IMG/VR virus record: IMGVR_UViG_2687453449_000004
Coordinates: 1 to 20,029 of that record
Source of the DNA: a virus
Lineage: Duplodnaviria > Heunggongvirae > Uroviricota > Caudoviricetes
Reading direction: 5' to 3' (one strand)
Length of the DNA stretch: 20,029 bases
The translations under genes and the position numbers were made by a program. Position 1 is the stretch's first letter. Each line of letters starts with the position of its first letter. Under the pieces are notes generated by a model. The model did not search any database and was not told the origin of the DNA. It saw only the letters and a list, made by a program, of their open reading frames with translations. Below, piece after piece: positions 1-20,029 of this stretch.

Positions 1-405
1 ATGGATCAGGTCGTTGTTTTTCAAAAGATGTTTGAGCAAGTGAGAAAAGAGCAAAACTTCTCCTGGTTTTATTCAGAATTAAAACATCACCGTATTGCAC
101 ATTACATTTATTATCTGGCTACGGATAACATCAGAATTATTACTCACGATGACACGGTTTTGTTATTAAGAGGAACCAGGAACCTGTTAAAAGTTAGTAC
201 GACCAAGAACCCTGCTAAAATAAAAGAGGCCGCATTGCTTCATATTTGCGGAAAATCTACATTTCGGGAATACTGTTCAACACTAGCAGGCGCGGGCGTT
301 TTCCGTTGGGTTACTGATGTTAATCATAACAAACGCAGTTACTACGCCATTGATAATACGCTTTTATATATTGAAGATGTAGAAAATAATAAACCATTAA
401 TCTAG
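1..405 (+). CDS. ycgX: Hypothetical protein, YcgX-like (host gene flanking iraM)
   Basis: 134-aa ORF in the track, AT-rich, directly upstream of iraM in the same orientation. This matches the ycgX-iraM-icdC order I recall for E. coli K-12. The ORF starts at window position 1, so the true 5' end may lie outside. Confidence 0.5.
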   Translation: MDQVVVFQKMFEQVRKEQNFSWFYSELKHHRIAHYIYYLATDNIRIITHDDTVLLLRGTRNLLKVSTTKNPAKIKEAALLHICGKSTFREYCSTLAGAGVFRWVTDVNHNKRSYYAIDNTLLYIEDVENNKPLI

Positions 406-620
406 CTAAAGTTGGATGCTTAAGAAATGCTTCATAATTCAGTAAGGCATTAGCATAATGGGAATAAAAGTACAGAGACTATCCCTATGGATGATAAATA
501 CTGTCCTTTTATTGCTACCCATAAATAATCACCATGCCAATACTATCAAATTGATATTTGAAATGTGATCACTTGACTTTCTATACGTTATTTTATAACG
601 GTTAATATATTTATAAAAAC

Positions 621-642
621 AACGGGTGTGCCATACGCCCGT
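621..642 (-). terminator. Hairpin (AACGGGTGTG..ACGCCCGTT) followed on the minus strand by a T-rich run; copy 1 of a duplicated about 50-bp module
   Basis: Inverted repeat read directly; T-run (revcomp of ATATTTATAAAAAC) follows the stem on the minus strand. About 50 bp, including flanks, closely resemble the module at 1462-1521. Confidence 0.4.
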
Positions 643-1100
643 TTCAATACTTAACGCACATGTGTTTTGGTTTAGTCATCATCCAGTTATATGTATTTTA
701 GCCAGGAACAGGTTAAACCTTTCCTATATAACTCAAAAATTGAAACCTTATTCTCATGTCATGCTTATATTCATTATTATCGTTATATAAAAAGGCAACC
801 ATAATGTTTAGCAAATTGGCACAAAGTAGCATAAAGGCTATGTTTTAATTACAGGATGTTCAGTCATTTGAATGTATAACATTATAGCTAAACAAATCTA
901 AAACGAAGTGAATAATTTATTGTTTTCACTAAATCTCATTTTGTTTAACATCCATTGAGATTCCTTGCTTTAAATTTTGTTTTATATAAGCAATCGTTTT
1001 AATTAATTTATTTTTTGAAGGGGTAATATACTCATATGCAAAATAAAGAAATGAACATCCAAATGAACTATATTAAATACCGTGGGATAAGACATAACAA

Positions 1101-1424
1101 ATGAAGTGGATAGTAATTGACACGATAATTCAACCTTCATGCGGCATATCTTTTTCAGCCATATGGGGTAATATGAAAATGATCATCTGGTATCAATCTA
1201 CTATATTTCTCCCTCCTGGCAGTATATTTACACCGGTTAAATCTGGAATTATCCTTAAAGATAAAGAATATCCTATTACTATTTATAACATCGCACCATT
1301 CAACAAGGATTTATGGAGTCTACTCAAAAGCAGTCAAGAGTGTCCTCCAGGAGAAAGCAAAATAACAAATAAATGTTTGCATAATAGTTGCATTATAAAA
1401 ATATGCCCATATGGGCTCAAGTAA
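1101..1424 (+). CDS. iraM: Anti-adaptor protein IraM (RssB antagonist)
   Basis: 107-aa ORF beginning MKWIVIDT; length and N-terminus match my recollection of IraM. It sits next to the icd 3' remnant as in K-12. A long AT-rich upstream region (406-1100) is consistent with a heavily regulated gene. Confidence 0.75.
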
Positions 1425-1480
1425 AGGGTTTTATATAAATATGCTCGATATGCTATTAATAATACCTACATAAATAAAAC

Positions 1481-1502
1481 AACGGGCGTGTTATACGCCC
1501 GT
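1481..1502 (-). terminator. Rho-independent terminator of the icd transcript (9-bp stem AACGGGCGT/ACGCCCGTT, 4-nt loop, T-run on minus strand)
   Basis: Perfect 9-bp inverted repeat 1481-1489/1494-1502, followed on the minus strand by GTTTTATTTAT, about 25 bp downstream of the icd-fragment stop codon. Confidence 0.6.
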
Positions 1503-1527
1503 TGCAATATTAAACACATGTAGTGAT

Positions 1528-1691
1528 TACATGTTCTTGATGATCGCATCACCAAATTCTGAACATTTCAGCAGTTTAGCGCCTTCCATCAGACGCTCGA
1601 AGTCATAGGTTACGGTCTTCGCATTGATTGCGCCTTCCATACCTTTAACAATCAGGTCTGCGGCTTCAGTCCAGCCCATATGGCGTAACAT
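1528..1691 (-). pseudogene. icdC: icd 3'-terminal fragment (icdC-like), marking the attachment-site junction of the prophage
   Basis: Minus-strand translation [54 protein letters not shown] matches the C-terminus of isocitrate dehydrogenase as I recall it. Homology stops abruptly at about 1691 and the upstream sequence is unrelated and AT-rich. Too short to appear in the ORF track. Confidence 0.85.
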
Positions 1692-1832
1692 TAGATTTAG
1701 AAAATTATTATATCCAATTGAATTAAAACAATTTTATACTTAACGAACATCTAAACTTGTTTTTTTACCTTCACCATAACTCGCTGATTTTGTATAGTTT
1801 ACGTAGCGTTTTGATAACCACTTTATGGCAAA

Positions 1833-2162
1833 ATGGAGGTTCGCTTGAAAACTTCTGTTCTTATCCAGAAATTAATGGAAATTGACAAAACTGTACTATT
1901 CGATGCGGACGTAGTGACCGGTGAGGAATGGTGGCCAACCCCGATTTCTCGTGTTTATCACAATCCGCCACATACTTATGTAGAATTTTAAACAGGTGAA
2001 CAATCTCAAAATGAATCTGACGAGCTAAGTGTTTATAGCGAATTACAAATTTGTGCACATCGAATGATGCAAATTAGAGATTTTGTGCAATCTAACGAGG
2101 GACTGAAACCTGAAAAAATTGTTTCGGAAATAAACATTCAAATTGAACGTATTAAAAAGTGA
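1833..2162 (+). pseudogene. Hypothetical ORF interrupted by one in-frame TAA (1989-1991)
   Basis: Single reading frame gives MEVRLKTSVLIQKLMEIDKTVLFDADVVTGEEWWPTPISRVYHNPPHTYVEF*TGEQSQNESDELSVYSELQICAHRMMQIRDFVQSNEGLKPEKIVSEINIQIERIKK*. Both halves look protein-like and the frame is maintained across the stop. Confidence 0.3.
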
Positions 2163-2227
2163 TGGCTGAAGCAATTCTGAAACACTAATTCATATTCTAT
2201 GTTATTCATACCAATGTGGATTTAACT

Positions 2228-2261
2228 CCCACCAACCCACCAACCCACCAACCCACCAACC
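2228..2261. repeat. Tandem octanucleotide repeat (CCCACCAA)x4 plus CC
   Basis: Read directly: cccaccaacccaccaacccaccaacccaccaacc, about 260 bp upstream of the restriction gene start. Confidence 0.9.
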
Positions 2262-2517
2262 ATGATTGGGCGGCGCAAGAAACTAATATCAATTAAAACA
2301 GCAAGTTATCAGTCTAAACAGAACACCAACGGGATGGAGGAGAGACAAAAAATATCCAATGAAACCGTAGCGCGTCAGCATTCAAAAGCGGGGTTTCTTA
2401 TTTTTACTTCACCAGTAACAAATACACTGTATCATAACTACATAAAAATGATTGTTCTGACTCAGATGAATTTCTTACTCTTGTAGAATGTCACTTAATG
2501 TTATTTATAGGTAAACA

Positions 2518-4407
2518 ATGAAATCCGAAACGCTAACCATCCAGCAAATTTTCCAAAATCAACGACAATATCGTGTTCCATTCTATCAACGTGCCTACGT
2601 ATGGACGCAACGAAACCAATGGTCAGCTTTGCTGGAGGATATCTTCGAAAAAGCACAGAGCCGACTTTCGGGAACAAAACCAACCCCTCATTTCCTCGGC
2701 GCGGTGGTGCTGGAACCTCAACTCAAAAACAGCTTGTTAGGTGTAGATACCATACATATTATTGACGGCCAGCAACGTTTAACCACTCTTCAATATATTC
2801 TGGCATCCATTCGATTATCATTGCGTGCTACAGGCCTTTCTGAACTGGAAGGGTTAGTATTGACTTGCTTGAAAAATACAAACGAAGCAACGATGAGAAA
2901 TAAAAAGGTAGAATGCTTCAAACTGTGGCCAACTTTTCGAGATCAAACTCATTTTATTCAAAGTCTTAATGTTGATAATATTGACGATCTCCGTAATGTA
3001 TTTTCTGATAGCTTCACGCAACATGGTACGTTACGTAAACATTTCAACCACCCGCCGTCACTAGAGGCATTATGGTTTTTTACTGAAGCCTTTATAAAAT
3101 GGATTAAAATAGAAAACCGCTCACCACAAGAAAATGCTGTAGCACTAATTGAGGCTGTCTTGACGGATCTGAAACTGGTAAGCATATTTCTCGAAGCTGA
3201 AGATGATGCCCAAATAATTTTTGAAACATTAAATGGGCGAGGAGCGGAACTTCATGCAACGGATCTTATTCGCAACTATATCTTTATGTGCGCTGAGCAT
3301 GAAAATATTAATACTATTGAATTATATGAAAATGAGTGGAAGATCTTTGAAGATAAATACTGGTCGGAAAAGCAACGCCGTGGACGTATTAATAAACCAC
3401 GCATGGAGTGGCTTGTACATGCGACATTGCAATCAGAAAGGCAGCGTGAAATTGATCTGTCTCGCCTTTACAATGAGTATCGTGATTATGTAAGTAAGGA
3501 CTTGCCTTCACAACGAGCAGATCTGCAAGTAAAGCGCCTCAAACAATATGCATCACAATATAAAGAATTGGTTGGTGGTTTTGGCACAACCCCAATCTCA
3601 CACTTTGGACATCGCATCGCAGCCTATGATGTGACGACACTCTATCCGCTTGCTTTGTTCATTTCGATAGCTAACATCGCCGATGATGAGAAAGCAGCCA
3701 TGTATAATGATCTTGTCTCCTACGTAGTACGAAGATCCGTATGTGGCCTGACGCCAAAGAATTACAACAATGTATTTATGAATGTATTGCGACACTTGTC
3801 TAAAACGGAAATTTCCAGTATTGAGTTACGTAATATCCTCAATAGCTTAAATGGCGAAGCCTCACGTTGGCCTGGGGACTCAGAATTTCTCAACGCTTGC
3901 ATCAATGCTCCACTTTATCCTGGCAGGCTCGACGCACCGAAAATGCGCTCAATGTTAACGGAACTTGAAAGAGAACTTTGTCGCCAAGTGAAGACAGAAA
4001 AGCCTGATGTTCCAAATCTTTCTAATCTCGATATCGATCATCTTATGCCTCAAAGTTGGTATTCCTGTTGGCCTCTCGAAAATGGTCATATGGTGACAAA
4101 TTCAGATGCTACGGTAATGAACCAAATTGTTCTGTCTGGAACCGATCTTACCCCTGAACAGCTACTGGTAAGGAAACGGCAACAAGCGATAGCTACGTTG
4201 GGAAATCTAACTTTGCTTAACCTTAGCGTAAACCGTTCCGTTCAGAATGCTGTATTTCTGAAAAAACGTGATGCTCTCATCGTCCACACCAATCTACGAC
4301 TGAACATACCACTTATACTTAAGGATAAATGGGATGAGAGTGAAATACTGGAGCGAGGTAAAAAGTTGGGGGAAATTGCATTGAAAGTATGGCCAAAATA
4401 CGATTAA
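2518..4407 (+). CDS. GmrSD-family type IV restriction endonuclease (N-terminal DUF262/ParB-like NTPase domain, C-terminal DUF1524 His-Me finger nuclease domain)
   Basis: 629-aa ORF. N-terminal motifs FYQRAYVW and IIDGQQRLTTLQ (DGQQR signature) and C-terminal DIDHLMPQS ... LGNLTLLNLSVNRSVQN fit the DUF262+DUF1524 fusion architecture. AT-rich relative to the prophage structural genes. Confidence 0.8.
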   Translation: MKSETLTIQQIFQNQRQYRVPFYQRAYVWTQRNQWSALLEDIFEKAQSRLSGTKPTPHFLGAVVLEPQLKNSLLGVDTIHIIDGQQRLTTLQYILASIRLSLRATGLSELEGLVLTCLKNTNEATMRNKKVECFKLWPTFRDQTHFIQSLNVDNIDDLRNVFSDSFTQHGTLRKHFNHPPSLEALWFFTEAFIKWIKIENRSPQENAVALIEAVLTDLKLVSIFLEAEDDAQIIFETLNGRGAELHATDLIRNYIFMCAEHENINTIELYENEWKIFEDKYWSEKQRRGRINKPRMEWLVHATLQSERQREIDLSRLYNEYRDYVSKDLPSQRADLQVKRLKQYASQYKELVGGFGTTPISHFGHRIAAYDVTTLYPLALFISIANIADDEKAAMYNDLVSYVVRRSVCGLTPKNYNNVFMNVLRHLSKTEISSIELRNILNSLNGEASRWPGDSEFLNACINAPLYPGRLDAPKMRSMLTELERELCRQVKTEKPDVPNLSNLDIDHLMPQSWYSCWPLENGHMVTNSDATVMNQIVLSGTDLTPEQLLVRKRQQAIATLGNLTLLNLSVNRSVQNAVFLKKRDALIVHTNLRLNIPLILKDKWDESEILERGKKLGEIALKVWPKYD

Positions 4408-4429
4408 TGCAATTAATAAAATGATTATA

Positions 4430-4453
4430 GCGGCCTTACATTAGTAAGGCCGC
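4430..4453. terminator. Perfect 10-bp stem-loop (GCGGCCTTAC-ATTA-GTAAGGCCGC) between the convergent restriction gene and pin remnant
   Basis: Inverted repeat read directly, 23 bp after the restriction-gene stop codon. Confidence 0.6.
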
Positions 4454-4632
4454 AACTCACTATTAAATCCTTTAATTTGCATCAAGAACAGCACTGTCAG
4501 CCCTAGGCTCTCGGACTTTGTACCGCTTATCTTGTCTTCAAAAATCAGCTCGCATCCTGCACAGTTCAACGCATTACGTTGTAGATCTGTGTTCTGGTCA
4601 TTTATTGATACGCGTACATAGCCAATAAGCAT
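4441..4632 (-). pseudogene. pinE: Pin/Gin/Hin-family serine DNA invertase, N-terminal remnant only (about 41 conserved residues)
   Basis: Minus-strand translation from ATG at 4632: MLIGYVRVSINDQNTDLQRNALNCAGCELIFEDKISGTKSE, the canonical invertase N-terminus including the catalytic Ser. It then diverges (SLGLTVLFLMQIKGFNSELRPY*) and stops. A full invertase would be about 190 aa. Track ORF 4441..4668 includes an upstream extension. Confidence 0.8.
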
Positions 4633-4658
4633 AGTGGATCCCTCTGACAAAAGCAGGA

Positions 4659-4994
4659 ATGATGCCATTTGCTCGTTATTTCTGCATTTTCATAAACGTT
4701 GGTTTGGGAGAAGGTGCTAACTGGGTTATGTTACCTAGAGGAATGATAATTCAGCGTGTTTATCTTGGATTTCCTGTCGGCACCAATGTAAGACACATAA
4801 CTTTCCCCCGGTCGTTTACAACAACGAACTATTCCATCTCAATTAACTGGAATGATATCGGTACTGTAACAACTGAAACACAATCTCCAGCAAATGTGGC
4901 GGTTGTTCATCAAACAAAATCATTAACAGGGGCCAGCATCTGGCAGGCAGGTCCCGGGGGATTTAATGTGGACATTATAGCGGTGGGGTATTGA
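4659..4994 (+). CDS. Tail-fibre C-terminal cassette lacking an N-terminal constant region (StfE-like silent alternative)
   Basis: 111-aa ORF that begins at or inside the pix-like site and ends 1 bp before a tfa gene. No fibre N-terminus and no obvious RBS. Placement matches the silent stf fragment in Din-type inversion systems. Confidence 0.5.
   Translation: MMPFARYFCIFINVGLGEGANWVMLPRGMIIQRVYLGFPVGTNVRHITFPRSFTTTNYSISINWNDIGTVTTETQSPANVAVVHQTKSLTGASIWQAGPGGFNVDIIAVGY
4687..4712. promoter_or_regulatory. pix/cix-like 26-bp invertase crossover site
   Basis: ttttcataaacgttggtttgggagaa; the reverse complement TTCTCCCAAACCAACGTTTATGAAAA has the two-half-site architecture (TTnTCnnAAACC) of Din-family sites. 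It lies about 55 bp from the pin start codon at the edge of the tail-fibre cassette. Confidence 0.6.
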
Positions 4995-4995
4995 T

Positions 4996-5487
4996 ATGTA
5001 CGTATGGAGCGCTAAAGCAAATGGCTTTTTCCCCATATCGGAGAAAGAAAAATTTGAGGCATCAGGTCTGTGGCCTGATGATGGTGTAATAGTCAGTGAG
5101 GAAGAACATAAAAAGTTATTTATGGATATTCCACCAGGAAAACAGATTGGAACACTGAATGGAAAACCAGCACTGATAGATATTCCTCAGCCGACCAAAA
5201 AGGAATTAATAGCTATTGCTGAAGTTAAAAAATCCCAATTACGGGAAAAAGCTGACAGTGAAATATCCTGGCGTCAGGATGCTGTTGATGCTGATATCGC
5301 AACTGATGAAGAAGCTACAACTCTCACCCAATGGAAGAAATACCGTGTGCTGCTGATGCGTGTTGATACGTCAACAGCACCCGATATTGAATGGCCTACG
5401 CCTCCGGCAGTTCAGGCCAGATGGCATCCGGCGCGGTGCTGGTATCTGTTGCCGTCACCGCGTCAATGTAATCCAGCACAGCGTTAA
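4996..5487 (+). CDS. Tail fibre assembly protein (TfaE-like), with an unusual C-terminal extension
   Basis: 163 aa; contains the conserved Tfa C-terminal peptide VDTSTAPDIEWPTPPA, then continues about 25 codons into the antisense of the convergent tfa gene. Confidence 0.7.
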   Translation: MYVWSAKANGFFPISEKEKFEASGLWPDDGVIVSEEEHKKLFMDIPPGKQIGTLNGKPALIDIPQPTKKELIAIAEVKKSQLREKADSEISWRQDAVDADIATDEEATTLTQWKKYRVLLMRVDTSTAPDIEWPTPPAVQARWHPARCWYLLPSPRQCNPAQR

Positions 5488-5998
5488 GGCGGGTTGTTTC
5501 TGCCTGCGTCAGTTTACGTCCGGCCTGCAATTTCAGCTGAATCAGACTGATGGAAGCCATTGCAGTATCAATCAGTGACTGGCGCTGTGCTTCTGCTGCA
5601 TCTACTGCGGCGCTATGCTGTGCTTCGGTATCCGTCACCCATTTCTCACCATCCCATTTATCGTATGGCGTTAACGGGGCGATAGTGGTTGTATTATCAG
5701 GGTAATCACCCGGAGCTGTGATTTCTTTTGATTCTCCTGTTTCGGTGCTAAAGACGATTTCACCGCGATGGTCTGGCACATATTCCCATGAGTTAAAATC
5801 TACAGATCGGCAGATTGCATAACCAGCTTTGTATGTGCCAGGGGCATCTAAACAGGAATATGCAGGGATACCGACACCCACAGCAAGATATTCAGTTGAT
5901 GTGGAAATATATTCCCGTGTTTCGCCATCATAGTTATAGACGGTAATATTCCCCGCCTTTGTAGCAATAAACTCGCTATTTAATACAGCGTTATCCAT
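5396..5998 (-). CDS. Tail fibre assembly protein (TfaP-like)
   Basis: 200 aa, N-terminus [33 protein letters not shown]-terminus TDTSTAPDAIWPELPEA, both typical of the lambda/Mu Tfa family. Start abuts the upstream fibre gene stop (coupled). Confidence 0.8.
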   Translation of the reverse strand: MDNAVLNSEFIATKAGNITVYNYDGETREYISTSTEYLAVGVGIPAYSCLDAPGTYKAGYAICRSVDFNSWEYVPDHRGEIVFSTETGESKEITAPGDYPDNTTTIAPLTPYDKWDGEKWVTDTEAQHSAAVDAAEAQRQSLIDTAMASISLIQLKLQAGRKLTQAETTRLNAVLDYIDAVTATDTSTAPDAIWPELPEA

Positions 5999-6939
5999 TA
6001 TGCAGCCCTCACGATATAGTTAAATGCAATATTCCGTGGACGGGTTTCATTTATCCCATATGCTGTTGTTCTCTGATTCCCGACAAAATATCCATTTGGA
6101 TTAGAAGATACAGAATAATCATCAAAATCAAGTGGGCTATCAGCACCCGGCGTCAGGCTTGCAATATATCCTCTTCCCATAACTTCTGATGCTGGTATTT
6201 CTTTTGTACGATAATCACTGACTCTGAAGAGCTGCCCTTGGTGGGTGTGTGATTCCACTCCTCCATTCTGAAGACTTAGCAAGGCACGTACAGCATCAAT
6301 ACCACGCCCGTCATCCCAGCCCCTAATAAACTCACCACGTAAATCAGGCAATTTATTTGTCGGATATTTAAAAATTACGTAGGTATGCGAAGGGCAGAGT
6401 TTGTTAAGCACACATTCGACGACGGTGTCGCCCCAGATACGCAGCGCGGAATCACAGGGATCGCCACATGTCATCCAGGTGCTGTTGGTGGCGGCTGGCA
6501 TGTTGACCTGCCAGTAATACCGCCATTCCGGCGCATTCACCGCGTCAGTACAGGACGATGAGCAGGTGAACGTGCTTTTGTCGTATCGCGTGATGGTGGC
6601 GTCTGGTCTGCCCAGGGCAGCAAGCTGTGCAAGGTAAAAATCCTCATTGATGCCGCCCGCCAGGTTAACCTTCGCATCCAGTCGTTGCTGACGCTGGCGA
6701 AGGGTCTGTGTTCCTGCGGGAATACATTCATCCGGCAGGCCGCACAGACGCTCCCAGCGATTTATCAGTTCGGTGGTGGTGCGCGGATCCAGCTCCCGCA
6801 TCAGGGCATCCGCACGCTGATGAACGCGGGTTAATGACTGTGCCGCACCGGCAATCGCCGGATCGCTGGCTGACCACGCCGGACCGGGCGGCAGCAGTGC
6901 CGACAACAGACGGATGTAATCATCGTTTGTCACGTCCAT
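5998..6939 (-). CDS. Mu gp48-like (DUF2313/YmfQ-like) tail protein continuous with a tail-fibre C-terminal tip domain
   Basis: 313-aa uninterrupted ORF. N-terminal about 195 aa ([22 protein letters not shown]...) resembles DUF2313 proteins. C-terminal part carries the tail-fibre motif [19 protein letters not shown]. Overlaps the upstream J-like gene by 10 nt. Confidence 0.7.
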
Positions 6940-8948: not shown

Positions 8949-10027
8949 CAGAACGGGTCCTCCTGTACTCTGGCTTTTTTCTTTTTCCGCGCGCCGGGGG
9001 CTTCGGGTTCAGGCAGATAAGCATCAGGTGGGCCGACACGGATTTCCGTCAGGGTGCCGTTCTGGTCCTGAGTAAACGTGACTTCCGAGACAAGCAGTTC
9101 GGTATTGTCGAAACCACAGACCGGATCGAAGACAATCACCCGCTGATTGGGCTGCCACAGCGTACCGTTACCCTGTCGCCAGCCCTGCACCACATAGGTG
9201 GTTTCATCCGTCCGCGCCGCCCGTTGTCGGGCTTCAAAGTCAGCACGCGCAATACAGCCTGCCCCCGTGGCCTGCCCTGTCTGCCTGATATACATCGGAC
9301 GGTAACGGGCAATAAATGCGTCCTCTGTGCGGGCCCGCAGCGCGGTGGTGGTGGCCTCACCGAAATCATCGTCGTTTCCGGCACGCTGCCCCGCCACCTG
9401 GTAAACAGAAAACCGCTCCCGGATACTCTTCTCCGTATCACAGGAAAGGATGTTTTCCCCAAGTACCAGCGCGGTATGTGCCCGCGTTGAGCCAATACCG
9501 CCAATCACCAGCCTGCCGTGCGGATCGTCGTAAGCCAGTGCCTGCTGCTGACCGAGTATTTTGTTGATTACCTCAATCACCGTTTCACCGTGATCAGGCT
9601 GGACGTCAGGAATAACACCCGACGGCGCACCGTTGTTCACCACCTCAATGCCGAAAGGCGCAGCAAGCGCCTGCGCAATCTGTACCAGCGATCGTCCGTT
9701 AAACTGTGTCGGTTCGGCTGCACAGTCAATCAGGTCAGCGGTCAGACTGCGTCCGGCAATACCGGTGCTGACCGAACGGGCATCGTAACGAACGGGCGTC
9801 GCCTCCACCCAGCCAGTGATCACCAGCTCATCACCAATCAGCACTTCCACTTTTGAACCGTTTTTAATGCGCGGCTGAAGCGTGGTGATACCCTCATCTC
9901 CCGGCCACTGGCGGGTGATCTCCACACTGAAATCCCGCGCCAGCCGTTCAATACCGGCACCGATGCGCACCGATGTCCAGCCATTCCACTCCCGGCCATT
10001 TACCCGTAGCGTGACGTTATCGTTCAT
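8948..10027 (-). CDS. Baseplate hub protein (Mu gp44 / P2 gpD-like late control D family)
   Basis: 359-aa ORF; size and position upstream of the V-like gene fit the gp44/gpD slot. Confidence 0.65.
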   Translation of the reverse strand: MNDNVTLRVNGREWNGWTSVRIGAGIERLARDFSVEITRQWPGDEGITTLQPRIKNGSKVEVLIGDELVITGWVEATPVRYDARSVSTGIAGRSLTADLIDCAAEPTQFNGRSLVQIAQALAAPFGIEVVNNGAPSGVIPDVQPDHGETVIEVINKILGQQQALAYDDPHGRLVIGGIGSTRAHTALVLGENILSCDTEKSIRERFSVYQVAGQRAGNDDDFGEATTTALRARTEDAFIARYRPMYIRQTGQATGAGCIARADFEARQRAARTDETTYVVQGWRQGNGTLWQPNQRVIVFDPVCGFDNTELLVSEVTFTQDQNGTLTEIRVGPPDAYLPEPEAPGARKKKKARVQEDPF

Positions 10028-10836
10028 TGCACTGGCACCTTCAGAGGGATCACCGGCACAAAGCCGGGATGTTTAATGGCATTACGCCGGATAATGTCCG
10101 CGTCACGCGCCGCGTTATCAAACCAGGTCGCCGCCAGCACCAGCGCGGGTAAAACCTCATCCGGCGTGCGCTGAATGATCCGTGCAGACTGTTCAAGGCG
10201 CGTGTTGATATCCGCATTCAGATCTGCTTTCACCCGGCGCAGCGCCAGAAATAGCGCATCACTGGTTGTACGGGACAACTCCTTATCAATTGCCGTATTC
10301 AGTGTGTCGCGAATGTCGGTCAGTTCCTCCCACGTTGGCAGGTCAACCGTGTTTTTCACCGCCGGTGCATTGTTCAGTGCCGGATGCGTGACGAAAGGCC
10401 AGCCGGTGCTCTGCGCGGGTGTTGTTGACTGCCCCACTGCAGCATTCTGCATCACCGCGGAAGTTGTTGGCGCAGGCAATCGGGTGACGGCATACGCCGC
10501 TTCGCTGATTGCGGTCGTACGAAGGGTGCTGGCAACCACGTTACGCTGCTGCGTCGCCGTGGCGGTGGTTTTACTGTCCGTTTTCCAGACGCCGCGCGGT
10601 TGCAGATCGCTGCCGAGGCTGACACCAGAAAGCGTTTTGATCATGGTGACCAGGTCGCTGGCGTTACCATAAAGGTGCTTCCCGGTACGCCACATTTTCT
10701 GCACCTGCTCAACAAAATTTTTGCCTGACGATGATGGCGTCACCGGTCTGCGCGGTTTCCTGCCAGGTGGTGGCACTGGTCTGGACAACCTTCGCCCATG
10801 TCCGGAACGCAACCGGGTATTGAGGCTCCACGCCAA
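10024..10836 (-). CDS. Tail protein remnant (Mu gp43 / tape-measure-like C-terminal region), probably 5'-truncated
   Basis: Track ORF of 270 aa whose first about 40 residues are Arg/Pro-rich low complexity and which overlaps the adaptor fragment by about 130 nt, so the annotated start is unlikely to be genuine. No sheath, tube or tape-measure genes lie upstream. Confidence 0.35.
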   Translation of the reverse strand: MAWSLNTRLRSGHGRRLSRPVPPPGRKPRRPVTPSSSGKNFVEQVQKMWRTGKHLYGNASDLVTMIKTLSGVSLGSDLQPRGVWKTDSKTTATATQQRNVVASTLRTTAISEAAYAVTRLPAPTTSAVMQNAAVGQSTTPAQSTGWPFVTHPALNNAPAVKNTVDLPTWEELTDIRDTLNTAIDKELSRTTSDALFLALRRVKADLNADINTRLEQSARIIQRTPDEVLPALVLAATWFDNAARDADIIRRNAIKHPGFVPVIPLKVPVQ

Positions 10837-11517: not shown

Positions 11518-11892
11518 TTACGCCGCTGCAATCTTCAGCAGTTTGATGGCCTGCGAATCGACCAGCATCCCGCCGGTGCGCTTGGTGGTATAAAAACCGA
11601 CAAACGGTTTATTGGTGTACGGGTCACGCAGAATGCGGGTGCCGATACGGTCAACGATGGTGTAACCCCGTTTGAAGTTACCAAATGCAATGGCTTTCGC
11701 ATCAGCGGCGATAGCCGTCCTGACGGTACTCATCCCCGCGCCAATCTGACGGGCAATGGTTTCAATTGATGGCCAACACACACCTTCGTCATTACTGAAA
11801 TCAGCCAGGCGGGCCATAATTGCCACGCTGGATAATTTCATGCCTGATGCAGCGCAACCATCCCATACATAGCCGGTTAATTTAGTGCTCAT
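11518..11892 (-). CDS. Helix-turn-helix replication-initiator-like protein (phage O / replisome-organiser N-terminal domain only)
   Basis: 124 aa containing LADFSNDEGVCWPSIETIARQIGAGMSTVRTAI, a winged-helix pattern typical of phage replication initiators. No helicase-loader or C-terminal domain follows. Confidence 0.45.
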   Translation of the reverse strand: MSTKLTGYVWDGCAASGMKLSSVAIMARLADFSNDEGVCWPSIETIARQIGAGMSTVRTAIAADAKAIAFGNFKRGYTIVDRIGTRILRDPYTNKPFVGFYTTKRTGGMLVDSQAIKLLKIAAA

Positions 11893-17224: not shown

Positions 17225-17470
17225 ATGCTTCAAATGCTGACACTTGAGGAATGGGCTGCGGAAAAATACAGAAGTAATCCTCCAAGCGTGTCCACATTGC
17301 GTCGTTATGCTAAGCAGAATTTATTTTGTCCACCGGCAATGAAACAAGGTCGACTATGGCGAGTGCGTGAGGACGCAGAGTTAGTTGGGGAATTAGTTAC
17401 TCCTGTCATCAAGAAAAATGATTCTATTATTCTACAAAGGATTTTAAGTAATGGCAGCCAGACCACGTAA
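17225..17470 (+). CDS. xisE: Excisionase (Xis/AlpA-like)
   Basis: Small basic protein MLQMLTLEEWAAEKYRSNPPSVSTLRRYAKQNLFCPPAMKQGRLWRVRE directly upstream of, and overlapping, the integrase gene. The track start at 17210 is an upstream alternative. Confidence 0.75.
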   Translation: MLQMLTLEEWAAEKYRSNPPSVSTLRRYAKQNLFCPPAMKQGRLWRVREDAELVGELVTPVIKKNDSIILQRILSNGSQTT

Positions 17471-18578
17471 AAATAATGTTTCAGTCCCGAACTTGTATCC
17501 GCTTTATAGTAGAAAAGTAAATAAAGTCTATTGGCGATATAAACATCCAGTGACCGGGAAGTTTCATTCTTTAGGCACAAACGAAGCTGAAGCCATTGCT
17601 ATTGCCACTGAGGCAAATTCACGCCTGGCTGAGCAAAGAACCCGGCAGATTCTGGCTATCAGTGACAGGATCGCAACCAGCAAAGGAAAAGCAATCACAA
17701 CGTCAACCTGGTTAGATCGCTATCAAGCAATCCAGGATGACAGACTGGAAAGTGGCGATATAAAGCTAAACACCTATAAACAGAAAGCCAAACCAGTATC
17801 CTTGCTCAGGGAACGAGCAGGAATGAAATTAATTTCATCAGTTGATGTAAGGGATATAGCACAATTACTTGACGAGTATATCACTGCCGGGCAACCGAGG
17901 ATGGCGCAAGTAGTCCGCTCCGTTCTAATTGATGTATTCAAGGAGGCACAACACTATGGGGAAGTCCCTCCGGGCTATAATCCAGCACTGGCAACCAAAC
18001 AACCCAGAAGAAAAATTACCCGACAACGGTTAAGTCTTGAAGAATGGCAAAAAATCTTTGATATCGCAGATGCCCGCCATCGTTATATGGGGAATGCCAT
18101 GCTGTTAGCACTGGTTACCGGCCAACGGTTAGGTGATATCTCACGTATGAAATTTAGCGATATTTGGGATGATCATCTTCACGTCATCCAAGAAAAAACC
18201 GGGAGCAAAATCGCCATCCCGCTTTCCCTTCGCCTCAATGCAATTAACTGGAGTTTACGCGATGTAGTAGCCCGCTGCCGTGACTATGCAGTCAGCCCAT
18301 ACCTTGTACATTTTTTTCGTACTACTTCACAGGCTGAACGTGGCGCGCAAGTAAAAGCCAATACATTGACGATGAATTTCAGTAAAGCGAGGGATTTAGC
18401 AGGCATTGACTGGGGTGAAGGTTCGCCCGCCACATTCCATGAACAAAGATCTTTATCTGAGCGACTTTACGAAGCTCAGGGCGTCGACACCCAAAAACTT
18501 CTGGGACATAAATCGCCTAACCAGACAGCTAAATACCATGATGATCGTGGTAAGGAATGGGCAAAAATCAAGGTTTGA
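17451..18578 (+). CDS. intE: Tyrosine integrase (lambda Int family; IntE-like)
   Basis: 375 aa; catalytic signatures TGQRLGDI (Arg), HEQR (HxxR), LLGH and the terminal KYHDDRGKEWAKI Tyr motif. Confidence 0.9.
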   Translation: MAARPRKNNVSVPNLYPLYSRKVNKVYWRYKHPVTGKFHSLGTNEAEAIAIATEANSRLAEQRTRQILAISDRIATSKGKAITTSTWLDRYQAIQDDRLESGDIKLNTYKQKAKPVSLLRERAGMKLISSVDVRDIAQLLDEYITAGQPRMAQVVRSVLIDVFKEAQHYGEVPPGYNPALATKQPRRKITRQRLSLEEWQKIFDIADARHRYMGNAMLLALVTGQRLGDISRMKFSDIWDDHLHVIQEKTGSKIAIPLSLRLNAINWSLRDVVARCRDYAVSPYLVHFFRTTSQAERGAQVKANTLTMNFSKARDLAGIDWGEGSPATFHEQRSLSERLYEAQGVDTQKLLGHKSPNQTAKYHDDRGKEWAKIKV

Positions 18579-18693: not shown

Positions 18694-19590
18694 ATGCAGT
18701 TGTATGCCTTACGTGTGTTAATGAGACCGCGCGATCCAGACCTCTTTTCGAAAGGAACTGTTCAGAAAGATATCTCTCATTTTGAAAATGCTATGGTTAT
18801 CGCTGCAAAAAATTTACACATGACGTCATCAACACCTTCCGTTCATAAGAAAACTAGTTACACCCTGAAATTGAGCATAAAACCTACTGATGGTGTTATG
18901 GCTGGAGTCATATCAAAGCTGCAAAAGATTAAAGGACATGATAAAGACTTTCGAGAGTACGATGTAGACAACTATCCACCTATCGTATGGATTTGGGACA
19001 AAGTAGAGCAGGTGTTACTGGTTGAGAGGAAAACCGCTGTTTTCAAGGATGCGCAACAAGTTGCTAAAGCGTTTGAAGATCTAGCCAATAACGACTATTT
19101 GGCTCAGTTAGGACTTAGAATATTTATAGAGCCTTGTCTTGAAATGGAAGATTTTTGGTCAGAATACCATAGGCTTCAATTTATCGACAAAGTCAGCTTT
19201 ACGCTGATTACTCCGAATATCTTCGGAAGCAGTAAGCAAGCGTTAACCAATGATTTACGGAAGCTTGAAAAAGATACCAATGCAAATACTGTGACCACTA
19301 TTTTTGAAAACAAAGATGGCAATTTGAAACTCAAAGGTTCTCATTGGGCTGAGACTCTTGTTGACTGGGTCAAAGATGGTGGCGGGTCATGGTTGATTAA
19401 AGGACGTAAGACACTCAAGTCAAAATCTACTACGGTATCCAGTAATCAGACAGCCAAAATCGTGCTGATCGAAGGTGAGATATCAGAAATTGAACTTGAT
19501 GGCTACTCAGCAAATGATATTAAAGAGATCATAGCATTACATCAAAACAGGTATACGTTCAAAAATGCAAAATCTAACTGTCTGGATTAA
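18694..19590 (+). CDS. Hypothetical cytoplasmic protein (298 aa), first gene of an int-adjacent cargo operon
   Basis: AGGAG RBS; AT-rich; no Walker A, HEXXH, HD or nucleotidyltransferase motifs seen, so not Lit. Confidence 0.55.
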   Translation: MQLYALRVLMRPRDPDLFSKGTVQKDISHFENAMVIAAKNLHMTSSTPSVHKKTSYTLKLSIKPTDGVMAGVISKLQKIKGHDKDFREYDVDNYPPIVWIWDKVEQVLLVERKTAVFKDAQQVAKAFEDLANNDYLAQLGLRIFIEPCLEMEDFWSEYHRLQFIDKVSFTLITPNIFGSSKQALTNDLRKLEKDTNANTVTTIFENKDGNLKLKGSHWAETLVDWVKDGGGSWLIKGRKTLKSKSTTVSSNQTAKIVLIEGEISEIELDGYSANDIKEIIALHQNRYTFKNAKSNCLD

Positions 19591-20029
19591 AGCTATAGCT
19601 ACCTTCTTTTTGTGCTTAGCATTAGCATCGACTGATAAAACCATTTATACCTTACTTGAGCAGGCTTCTGCTGGAGTAATAGGTTCAATACTTGGAGGTA
19701 TTGCCGCAGGTATCTCCGTTATCTTCGGAATTTTGGCTGTCATTAATAAGGGCGAGAAAAGCACAGACTTTACGGACTATTTAGATAGTTTAGAATTAGA
19801 TTTGAAATTACTGGTCATGTGTCTGGCAGTAACAATCTTCCTTCCCTATTTACGTAATTATGACATACCACTAGTAAATTATCCTCAGCACGAATTTATC
19901 CCTTCTAAAGGCAAGCTATTTACTGCTTTAGAACTTTTTGCTATCGTGCTATCTCTTAACCTCATTGCAGAAGTGATTAGCTGCATGATTTTAGTGGTTA
20001 AAAAAAGTTTCAAAATTGAATCAAAGTGA
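19565..20029 (+). CDS. Small integral membrane protein (at least 4 predicted TM helices), 3' end outside window
   Basis: Hydrophobic stretches WIKAIATFFLCLALAS, AGVIGSILGGIAAGISVIFGILAVI, LKLLVMCLAVTIFLPYL and LFTALELFAIVLSLNLIAEVISCMILVV; start overlaps the upstream gene by 26 nt; no stop before the window end. Confidence 0.55.
   Translation: MQNLTVWIKAIATFFLCLALASTDKTIYTLLEQASAGVIGSILGGIAAGISVIFGILAVINKGEKSTDFTDYLDSLELDLKLLVMCLAVTIFLPYLRNYDIPLVNYPQHEFIPSKGKLFTALELFAIVLSLNLIAEVISCMILVVKKSFKIESK

What the first reader, a model, noticed from the sequence alone, without database searches (positions are those of the whole stretch)
4441..4712. Invertase gene truncated to about 41 residues while its crossover site and tail-fibre cassette remain
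The canonical Din-invertase N-terminus is intact (MLIGYVRVS...KISGTKSE), then the frame diverges and stops, so no functional Pin can be made in cis. The divergence point lies at the edge of the AT-rich restriction-gene cargo, suggesting that cargo acquisition destroyed pin. A pix-like 26-bp site (4687-4712) is still present, so inversion could only occur via a Gin/Hin/Cin-type invertase supplied in trans.
Basis: partly seen in the sequence, partly recalled or inferred. Interest (0 to 1): 0.6.

Follow-up and report, generated by a model that had tools for sequence, protein, structure and literature searches.

The report
Dead invertase gene, locked tail-fibre switch
This is the decayed DNA-inversion switch of an e14-type cryptic prophage in E. 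coli: the invertase gene is cut to 41 codons by a swapped-in restriction gene and one of its two crossover sites is also deleted, so the switch is frozen here, although relatives that keep both sites still flip.

Summary
On the minus strand, 4632-4508 match pinE nt 1-125 (41 codons). Homology to every intact pin ends at 4508. No other part of pin exists in the window in any frame. The 26-bp site at 4687-4712 is identical to the pinE-proximal site of K-12 e14. A GmrSD-type type IV restriction gene (2518-4407) sits where K-12 has mcrA plus the pin 3' end. The same junction is in 282 of 5,426 complete E. coli genomes, where RefSeq records I opened annotate it as a partial recombinase.

The partner crossover site is gone. 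A private 438-bp in-frame deletion (junction 6361-6366) fused ymfQ to the tail-fibre tip. It removed the fibre's constant part and the second site, so no invertase could flip this copy.

In relatives with both sites, inversion after the truncation is clear. E4 (99.9% identical) and the IHE3034/UTI89 pair differ by a precise flip. Published PCR primers for a UTI89 "2.9 Mb inversion" map to this locus. UTI89 carries an intact Pin-like invertase in another prophage.

This is an ordinary prophage-decay story with a known mechanism.

The parts
1530..1694 (-). Partial icd duplication (icdC-like), marking the right end (attR) of the e14-family prophage. Homology to K-12 stops at 1694.
   Evidence: Window 108-1694 matches K-12 ycgX-to-icdC at 95.4%. 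The same fragment is annotated as partial isocitrate dehydrogenase in LST200A and E4.
1695..4507 (+). Replaced cargo block (about 36-44% G+C). It occupies the position of K-12 mcrA plus the 3' 430 nt of pinE.
   Evidence: No homology to K-12 between 1694 and 4508. Composition profile.
2518..4407 (+). GmrSD-family type IV (modification-dependent) restriction endonuclease gene, 629 aa, intact.
   Evidence: Pfam GmrSD_N 2.1e-33 and GmrSD_C 3.8e-19. PADLOC mREase_IV 1516 bits over 1-629. Annotated 'DUF262 domain-containing protein' in the genomes inspected.
4430..4453 (.). Perfect 10-bp stem, 4-nt loop hairpin (GCGGCCTTAC ATTA GTAAGGCCGC) between the GmrSD stop codon and the pin remnant. It is a possible transcription stop for the convergent genes.
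   Evidence: Read directly from the sequence. The simple terminator scan did not call it because there is no T-run, so its function is inferred only.
4508..4632 (-). pin remnant: nt 1-125 of a Din-family invertase gene (41 codons, MLIGYVRVS...KISGTKSE). The mechanical ORF is 4441-4668.
   Evidence: PGAP annotates it 'recombinase family protein, incomplete, missing C-terminus' in sister genomes.
4548..4611 (-). Predicted Fis-dependent recombinational enhancer inside the remnant. It consists of two 15-bp G-N13-C blocks, GTATCAATAAATGAC (4611-4597) and GTGCAGGATGCGAGC (4562-4548).
   Evidence: The blocks are nearly invariant at nucleotide level between pin, Mu gin and the UTI89 P2-like invertase gene in a gap-free alignment. 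They span 64 bp, with the first block centred about 95 bp from the crossover centre. The Hin enhancer is 65 bp and about 100 bp from hix, and the Mu enhancer lies within gin (PMC3798978). This is an inference and was not tested.
4687..4712 (.). The single surviving 26-bp crossover site (pinE-proximal pix): TTCTCCCAAACC AA CGTTTATGAAAA on the minus strand.
   Evidence: Identical to the K-12 e14 site. It is the only match in the window even with relaxed searches.
4659..4994 (+). Pin-proximal ORF of 111 aa. A short leader runs through the crossover site (..FINVGLGEG) and is followed by a Gp53-like C-terminal tail-fibre tip (silent alternative tip, Sv').
   Evidence: Pfam Gp53-like_C. In E4 the same tip is joined to the constant fibre part.
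4996..5487 (+). Tail-fibre assembly gene for the Sv' tip. It reads 21 codons longer than in E4, LST200A and LWY6 (163 aa against 142 aa).
   Evidence: Pfam Caudo_TAP 1.1e-32. Comparison with the E4 142-aa product, which ends ...AVQAR*.
5396..5998 (-). tfaE-type tail-fibre assembly gene, 200 aa.
   Evidence: Pfam Caudo_TAP 2.4e-32. Matches K-12 tfaE at 91% in inverted order.
5998..6939 (-). In-frame fusion of YmfQ (Mu gp48-like baseplate protein, residues 1-193) to the last 120 residues of the tail-fibre tip ([12 protein letters not shown]...IVRAA).
   Evidence: Pfam Phage_Mu_Gp48 on residues 12-192. Comparison with the separate ymfQ and fibre genes of LST200A and E4.
6361..6366 (.). Junction of the 438-bp deletion (6-bp microhomology TATCCG / CGGATA). 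The deletion removed the ymfQ stop, the constant fibre part, the second crossover site and the first 39 codons of the tip.
   Evidence: Window 1-6366 is colinear with an in-silico flipped E4 at 99.86%, then jumps 438 bp. All 13 full-length matches among 5,426 genomes come in two pieces spanning 867-869 bp, so none shares the deletion.

Best explanation
The window holds a degraded e14-family prophage integrated at icd. Its Mu-type tail-fibre switch originally had the order Sc / crossover site / Sv-U-U'-Sv' / crossover site / pin. The switch has been inactivated twice.

First event (old and shared). The DNA between the prophage end and pin codon 42 was replaced by a block carrying a GmrSD type IV restriction gene. 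This left 125 nt of pin, including the predicted Fis enhancer, and the adjacent crossover site.

Intermediate state (inferred for this lineage, shown in relatives). The segment went on inverting through Din-family invertases made by other prophages.

Second event (recent and private). With the segment in the orientation opposite to strain E4, a 438-bp microhomology deletion fused ymfQ to the fibre tip and removed the second crossover site.

With one site and no invertase the segment is now permanently locked. With the tail, head and lysis genes also deleted, the switch no longer serves a phage.

Shown: the truncation, the single site, both deletions, and the flips in relatives. Inferred: the order of events, the identity of the trans invertase, and the enhancer.
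For: - Truncation and breakpoint at 4507/4508.
- Cargo identity.
- Same junction in 282 of 5,426 genomes, at two integration sites, and with GmrSD alleles 7.5% apart.
- GmrSD gene in 296 genomes, none of the listed records with an intact pin beside it.
- Two sites in K-12, LST200A, E4 and IHE3034 but one in the window.
- Window equals flipped E4 plus a 438-bp deletion plus a 6.8-kb deletion.
- The 438-bp deletion is unique among 5,426 genomes.
- Inversion after truncation in IHE3034 versus UTI89: flanks 100% identical over 4,464 and 2,282 bp, with the 1,939-bp segment precisely inverted.
- The in-silico flipped junction is found in 79 genomes (all 60 listed at 100% identity), and the unflipped type is also found in dozens.
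- Published three-primer PCR for the 'inversion at 2.9 Mb in UTI89' maps to the GmrSD gene, tfaE and ymfQ of this locus: PMC6458436.
- UTI89 has an intact 199-aa invertase, 77% identical to PinE, in a P2-like prophage.
- PinQ, PinR and PinE all invert the e14 P segment in K-12: PMC12529663.
Against: - The genome of origin is not in the collections, so nothing can be said about invertases elsewhere in that strain. This does not matter for a one-site substrate.
- The order 'flip, then deletion' is the most parsimonious reading, not a demonstrated one.
- About 30 nt past the breakpoint still match pinE at 17 of 32 positions (counted by eye on the alignment), so the exact join and the mechanism of the cargo swap are unresolved.
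- A very degenerate second site cannot be excluded absolutely. However, nothing in the 20 kb comes within 8 mismatches of either site.
Confidence: 0.88

Rival explanations
1. One reading: the cassette in this window is still invertible, provided that a Gin/Hin/Cin/Pin-type invertase is supplied in trans.
For: The surviving site is perfect and the predicted enhancer is retained. Trans inversion of this allele happens in relatives.
Against: Only one crossover site exists in the 20 kb. The partner site lay within the 438 bp that are deleted here. Deleting stfP or stfE, each of which removes one repeat, abolishes the inversion-dependent, PinQ-mediated T2 protection in K-12 (PMC12529663).
Confidence: 0.03
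2. The truncation is a sequencing or assembly artefact, and an intact pin would appear after correcting a frameshift.
For: None beyond the short ORF itself.
Against: No PinE-like coding sequence beyond residue 49 in any frame of the window. The identical junction is in 282 complete genomes from many laboratories. PGAP calls it partial and missing the C-terminus.
Confidence: 0.01
3. The orientation differences among relatives arose by RecA-dependent recombination between the short inverted repeats, or by horizontal exchange of whole cassettes, not by a trans-acting invertase.
For: The comparative data alone show only that the exchange lies inside the roughly 20-bp overlap at the sites. Some carriers show no second pin-like or GmrSD-like match on the chromosome at blastn sensitivity, for example S88 and PMV-1.
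Against: The shared perfect repeat is only 16 bp. That is below the roughly 23-27 bp usually needed for efficient RecA exchange (established knowledge, from my memory). Both orientations are detectable by PCR within single UTI89 cultures (PMC6458436), which implies a high rate. UTI89 encodes an intact Din invertase. Cross-action of Pin enzymes on this very site is shown experimentally (PMC12529663).
Confidence: 0.05
4. The 125-nt remnant is not a neutral leftover. It is kept because it carries the Fis enhancer that the orphan switch needs in cis. This view is compatible with the best explanation for relatives and is irrelevant in this locked copy.
For: Both predicted Fis blocks lie inside the remnant with 40 bp to spare. 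One single junction has persisted across two integration sites and 7.5% divergence of the adjacent gene. The peptide tail after codon 41 is not conserved: a 1-nt indel in IHE3034 shifts the frame immediately after codon 41.
Against: A single junction means a single event, so there is no independent replication. Divergence of the remnant between window and IHE3034 (4 of 123) is no lower than that of the phage backbone (1.6%) or the flanking non-coding 110 nt (5 of 110), so no signal of constraint is detectable. Fis binding was not tested.
Confidence: 0.3

Closest known systems
e14 Pin / invertible P segment of E. coli K-12 (pinE, stfP-tfaP-tfaE-stfE, mcrA)
   Same: Same integration site (icd). 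Same gene order: ymfQ, fibre, two assembly genes, silent fibre tip, crossover site, pin, type IV restriction gene, icd'. The pin-proximal site is identical. The first 125 nt of pin are about 96% identical, with 5 mismatches in 125 nt in the alignment.
   Different: Pin is cut after codon 41. mcrA is replaced by a GmrSD gene. The second site and the constant fibre part are deleted. The fibre tips are different alleles.
Phage Mu G segment / Gin
   Same: Same architecture: gp48, S (Sc+Sv), U, U', Sv', gix, gin, then an end-of-genome cargo (com/mom). The distance from site centre to invertase start codon is identical (67-68 bp), and the alignment through codon 41 is gap-free.
   Different: Mu has an intact gin and two gix sites with a GA core. 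Here the core is AA, the invertase is dead and one site is missing.
The same truncated allele in ExPEC genomes such as UTI89, IHE3034, S88 and APEC O1 (the '2.9 Mb inversion' of UTI89 in Russell et al. 2019, PMC6458436)
   Same: Same GmrSD-pin' junction, same surviving site, same predicted enhancer.
   Different: Those copies keep the second site and the whole fibre gene and are found in both orientations. They sit at another chromosomal site, next to DinI-like and GIY-YIG genes, not at icd.
Inversion of the e14 P segment by invertases of other prophages (PinQ/PinR; Kirigo et al. 2025, PMC12529663)
   Same: A tail-fibre segment flipped by an invertase encoded elsewhere. The pin-proximal ORF here (leader plus Gp53-like tip) has the architecture of their StfE2.
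   Different: In K-12 the local pinE is intact. Here it is dead and the substrate has lost one site. The tip is not detectably similar by BLASTP to K-12 StfP.

Membership tests
Din-family DNA invertase (Pin/Gin/Cin/Hin), as a functional gene | N-terminal catalytic region with the serine nucleophile motif (..YVRVS..) | tested here: met
   MLIGYVRVSINDQ... matches PinE residues 1-41 (one substitution). Pfam Resolvase 6.3e-08.
Din-family DNA invertase (Pin/Gin/Cin/Hin), as a functional gene | Complete catalytic domain, oligomerisation helix and C-terminal helix-turn-helix DNA-binding domain (about 180-200 aa) | tested here: not met
   Only profile positions 2-54 of 145 are matched. PinE residues 50-184 are absent from all six frames of the window.
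Din-type invertible segment | Two 26-bp crossover sites in inverted orientation flanking the segment | tested here: not met
   One site only, at 4687-4712. The best other 26-mer has 9 mismatches. The partner site is present in five relatives.
Din-type invertible segment | Fis-dependent enhancer in cis, natively in the 5' part of the invertase gene | tested here: inconclusive
   Two blocks nearly invariant with gin lie at the expected distance and span (PMC3798978). No binding or functional data exist.
Din-type invertible segment | Alternative tail-fibre tips and their assembly genes in opposed orientation | tested here: met
   Gp53-like_C tip plus Caudo_TAP on the plus strand. Caudo_TAP plus a tail-fibre tip on the minus strand that is 44% identical to the C-terminal part of K-12 StfE (no Pfam family matched it).
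GmrSD type IV restriction endonuclease (the cargo) | N-terminal DUF262/GmrSD_N and C-terminal DUF1524/GmrSD_C domains in one intact polypeptide | tested here: met
   Both Pfam domains are above their cut-offs. PADLOC mREase_IV is full length at 1516 bits. Activity was not tested.
e14-family prophage integrated at icd | icd' duplication at one end, lambda-type integrase and excisionase at the other, Mu-like baseplate genes | tested here: met
   icd' at about 1530-1694 and homology to K-12 e14. Integrase at 17451-18578 with Arm-DNA-bind_1 + Phage_integrase. Baseplate_J and Mu Gp48. E4 has the full 38-kb version ending at icd.

The most novel reading that the evidence does not exclude
In the lineage that carries this allele (282 genomes, two integration sites), the 125-nt stump of pin is kept because it holds the Fis enhancer. 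The tail-fibre segment then survives as an 'orphan' switch that is run entirely by invertases of unrelated prophages. The copy in this window would be a phase-locked derivative that constitutively presents the StfE2-like pin-proximal ORF (leader plus Gp53-like tip), the architecture recently reported to block phage adsorption.
Probability: 0.2. Interest if true: 0.45.

Novelty: new member of a known kind. Interest (0 to 1): 0.27.

Why it matters
For this window it matters little. It documents step-by-step decay of a cryptic prophage: a cargo swap, then microhomology deletions. It also corrects the idea that the cassette could still switch.

The wider allele is a tidy natural example of two known principles:
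- The slot between the invertase gene and the prophage end is a swap site for anti-phage restriction genes. It holds McrA in K-12, GmrSD here and a DUF4145 protein in LWY6, and Mu has com/mom at the same position.
- Din-type switches are modular, so a segment that has lost its own invertase keeps flipping as long as both sites, and probably the enhancer, survive and another prophage supplies the enzyme.

Genome annotators should note that orientation differences at this locus between closely related ExPEC genomes are programmed flips, not mis-assemblies.

Tried and rejected
- **Second crossover site.** I searched with up to 3 mismatches, a degenerate core pattern, a regex on AAAC[CG]NN[CG]GTTT, and a Hamming scan up to 9 mismatches against both site versions. 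Nothing was found. The inverted-repeat finder gave only chance pairs.
- **Frameshift rescue of pin.** Rejected by tblastn.
- **Origin of the 100 nt between the GmrSD stop and the breakpoint.** The genome-contig scan returned only two GmrSD relatives (80% and 46% aa). Only the 80% one was compared with the window; its homology is confined to the coding region, with no recombinase nearby, so it was uninformative. Positions 4476-4507 still match pinE at 17 of 32 (my own count on the alignment). I could not decide between chance, a ragged junction, or recombination with a diverged recombinase fragment.
- **Selection on the remnant.** Divergence between window and IHE3034 is similar in the remnant, the downstream spacer and the phage backbone, so there is no power to detect constraint.
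- **Sequenced phages with the GmrSD-pin' junction.** None found. All phage hits start at the breakpoint and have intact invertase genes.
- **Trans invertase in every carrier genome.** The search tool lists only one place per record. A chimeric query gave counts only (UTI89 2, IHE3034 2, S88 1, PMV-1 1). Only UTI89 was followed up.
- **Johnson's 2015 review of DNA invertases.** It is not held in the library, so the enhancer position rests on PMC3798978 and on titles cited there.
- **Promoter and terminator scan of 4300-4800.** It found nothing.

Full report
**What is at the coordinates**

The minus-strand ORF 4441-4668 reads MASFLLLSEGST-MLIGYVRVSINDQNTDLQRNALNCAGCELIFEDKISGTKSE-SLGLTVLFLMQIKGFNSELRPY*. 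From the ATG at 4632, 41 codons match K-12 PinE apart from one T-to-I change. An anchored DNA comparison shows near-identity down to 4508 and then collapse.

The same start of homology is seen with three independent comparators:
- a nearly full-length pin in strain LWY6, at 4508;
- intact invertase genes of sequenced phages such as vB_EcoM-606R2, at 4508-4511;
- K-12 pinE, at 4508.

Pfam Resolvase covers only profile positions 2-54 of 145. A tblastn of PinE against the whole window finds residues 1-49 and nothing else. The truncation is therefore real and is not a frameshift.

The 26-bp site at 4687-4712 is identical to the pinE-proximal crossover site of e14 and has no chance expectation.

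**Context**

The window is an e14-family prophage at icd.
- To the left lie ycgX, ymgL, iraM and the icd' duplication (about 1530-1694).
- To the right lie Mu-type baseplate genes, a repressor, a CII-like gene, an excisionase and the integrase at 17451-18578.

Between icd' and pin codon 42, K-12 has mcrA plus the pin 3' end. The window instead has 2.8 kb of low-G+C DNA carrying an intact 629-aa GmrSD-family type IV restriction gene (Pfam GmrSD_N + GmrSD_C; PADLOC mREase_IV at 1516 bits).

The exact join is not resolved. About 30 nt beyond 4508 still match pinE at 17 of 32 positions (my count on the alignment). A GmrSD relative in another genus shares only the coding region.

**How common is the junction**

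- The GmrSD-pin'-site junction is present in 282 of 5,426 complete E. coli genomes.
- The GmrSD gene is present in 296 genomes, and none of the listed records has an intact pin beside it.
- In the records I opened, PGAP annotates the remnant as 'recombinase family protein, incomplete, missing C-terminus'.
- The junction is the same in prophages at two chromosomal sites: icd here, and a DinI-like / GIY-YIG neighbourhood in IHE3034 and UTI89.
- It is also the same in GmrSD alleles that differ by 7.5%. This points to one old event.
- In IHE3034 a 1-nt indel right after codon 41 shifts the reading frame. The extra peptide tail is therefore not conserved and the stump is not a selected small protein.

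A Din-type switch needs two sites. K-12, LST200A, E4 and IHE3034 each have a second site (CTCTCGAAAACC TT GGTTTGGGAGAA). It lies in inverted orientation inside the tail-fibre gene, at the codons ...ALENLGLGEG... that join the constant and variable parts. The window has none.

The closest genome, strain E4, is 99.8-99.9% identical. It carries the same truncated pin, but the segment 4694-6366 is in the opposite orientation. If E4 is flipped in silico at its two sites, window 1-6366 becomes colinear with it at 99.86%. The window then skips 438 bp and continues.

The missing 438 bp are in frame and are bounded by the 6-bp microhomology TATCCG. They contained:
- the ymfQ stop codon;
- the whole constant part of the fibre gene;
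- the second crossover site;
- the first 39 codons of the fibre tip.

The result is the 313-aa ORF 5998-6939, a YmfQ::fibre-tip fusion. None of the 5,426 genomes shares this deletion. Every full-length match comes in two pieces spanning 867-869 bp.

Two further deletions removed most of the prophage:
- A 6.8-kb deletion, joined at 10732/10733, removed the tail genes.
- Another deletion joined a capsid C-terminus to a replication-gene HTH (ORF 11518-11892). It removed the head, terminase, lysis and late-control genes that E4 still has.

The switch in this window is therefore locked for two independent reasons, and it has no phage left to serve.

**Does the truncated allele still flip where both sites survive?**

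Yes. Four lines of evidence support this.

1. *Comparative.* IHE3034 and UTI89 have 100% identical flanks (4,464 and 2,282 bp), and the 1,939-bp segment is precisely inverted between them. The in-silico flipped IHE3034 junction occurs in 79 genomes, all 60 listed ones at 100% identity over 750 bp, including UTI89, S88 and NU14. The unflipped type occurs in dozens more, including APEC O1 and PMV-1. Strain series from single studies contain both types.
2. *Experimental.* Russell et al. 2019 detected and PCR-validated an 'inversion at 2.9 Mb' in UTI89 cultures, independent of Fim recombinases (PMC6458436). Their three primers map to the GmrSD gene, tfaE and ymfQ of exactly this locus. They noted that only one of the two prophage inversions in UTI89 was adjacent to an invertase gene.
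3. *A candidate donor.* UTI89 has an intact 199-aa invertase, 77% identical to PinE, in a P2-like prophage at 0.92 Mb. It has its own gix-like site.
4. *Precedent.* In K-12, PinQ, PinR and PinE all invert the e14 P segment (PMC12529663).

The shared perfect repeat is only 16 bp. Homologous recombination is therefore an unlikely cause of inversions frequent enough to be seen by PCR within a culture. That threshold argument rests on established knowledge, not on a test here.

**Enhancer (inference)**

Din invertases need a Fis-bound enhancer in cis. For Hin it is 65 bp and lies about 100 bp from hix. For Mu it lies within gin (PMC3798978).

Pin, gin and the UTI89 invertase gene align without gaps from the crossover site through codon 41. 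Two 15-bp G-N13-C blocks are nearly invariant at nucleotide level: window 4611-4597 and 4562-4548. They span 64 bp, and the first is centred about 95 bp from the crossover centre. Both lie inside the retained 125 nt.

This would explain why the orphan segment remains a good substrate in relatives. I found no statistical sign of constraint on the stump, and nothing was tested biochemically.

**Comparison with what is known, and verdict**

The closest system is the e14 Pin/P-segment module, itself a relative of Mu Gin/G.
- As a gene, the stump fails membership of functional Din invertases because two-thirds of the protein is missing.
- As a switch, the locus fails the two-site requirement.
- What remains is a recognisable, annotated pseudogene plus one orphan site in a shrinking cryptic prophage.

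The allele-wide behaviour, an invertase-less segment flipped in trans, fits long-known interchangeability of Din invertases and the 2025 PinQ work. I did not find it described explicitly for this allele in the papers searched.

I rate it a new member of a known kind, of low to moderate interest.

Noticed in passing
window 5998-6939 (-), junction 6361-6366: An in-frame 438-bp deletion creates a 313-aa fusion of the baseplate protein YmfQ (Mu gp48-like) to the C-terminal 120 residues of a tail-fibre tip. The deletion is bounded by the 6-bp microhomology TATCCG and is unique among 5,426 complete E. coli genomes.
   Followed up: yes
window 10732-10733, and ORF 10024-10836 (-): A 6.8-kb deletion relative to strain E4 (E4 locus L002 14164-20958), with a short GATG-type microhomology. 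It removes part of the DNA-circularisation gene, the tape-measure, tube, sheath and terminator genes, and leaves a 270-aa ORF with no Pfam match.
   Followed up: partly
window 11518-11892 (-), homology break near 11717: A 124-aa ORF combines an HTH_36 domain with the last 60 residues of a phage capsid protein. This marks a third large deletion that removed the head, terminase, lysis and Q genes present in E4. It parallels the chimeric ymfN of K-12 e14 but has different end points.
   Followed up: partly
window 1695-4507; L003 (K-12), L008 (LWY6), L011 (Mu): The slot between the invertase gene and the prophage end holds different genes in relatives, at least two of them type IV restriction enzymes: McrA in K-12, GmrSD here, and a DUF4145 protein in LWY6. 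Mu carries com/mom at the equivalent place. It looks like a cargo-exchange hot spot.
   Followed up: partly
window 1695-2517: About 820 bp of 36-38% G+C DNA between icd' and the GmrSD gene has no recognisable gene. The 74-aa ORF 2262-2486 has no Pfam or PADLOC match. Homology with the IHE3034 version of the cargo begins only at 2401.
   Followed up: no
window 18694-20029: Downstream of the integrase lie two hypothetical genes (298 aa with no Pfam match, and a second ORF of 154 aa (19565-20029) that ends at the last base of the window). They are present in only 36 of 5,426 genomes. In E4 they are followed by an integrase fragment and then icd, which suggests the remnant of a second element inserted in tandem at icd.
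   Followed up: partly
window 4996-5487 (+), overlapping 5396-5998 (-): The tail-fibre assembly ORF reads 163 aa, against 142 aa in E4 (ending ...AVQAR*). The window reads on as ...AVQARW..., so its stop codon is lost. In the same overlap the convergent tfaE product has A where E4 has V (DAIWPELPEA against DVIWPELPEA), so one substitution may explain both; I did not check this at DNA level.
   Followed up: partly
L007 5465-6280 (E. coli E4; not in the window): The intact sister prophage in E4 carries a TIR-domain protein gene between the lysis genes and the Q antiterminator gene. This is a second likely defence cargo, and it is lost in the window's deleted copy.
   Followed up: no
L006 38975-39654 (UTI89, P2-like prophage): An intact 199-aa Din invertase sits next to its own gix-like site (TTCCTGTAAACCGAGGTTTTAAATAA, GA core) and tail-fibre cassette. 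This probably corresponds to the published '0.9 Mb inversion' of UTI89 (I did not map those primers) and is the likely trans donor for the orphan switch at 2.9 Mb.
   Followed up: partly
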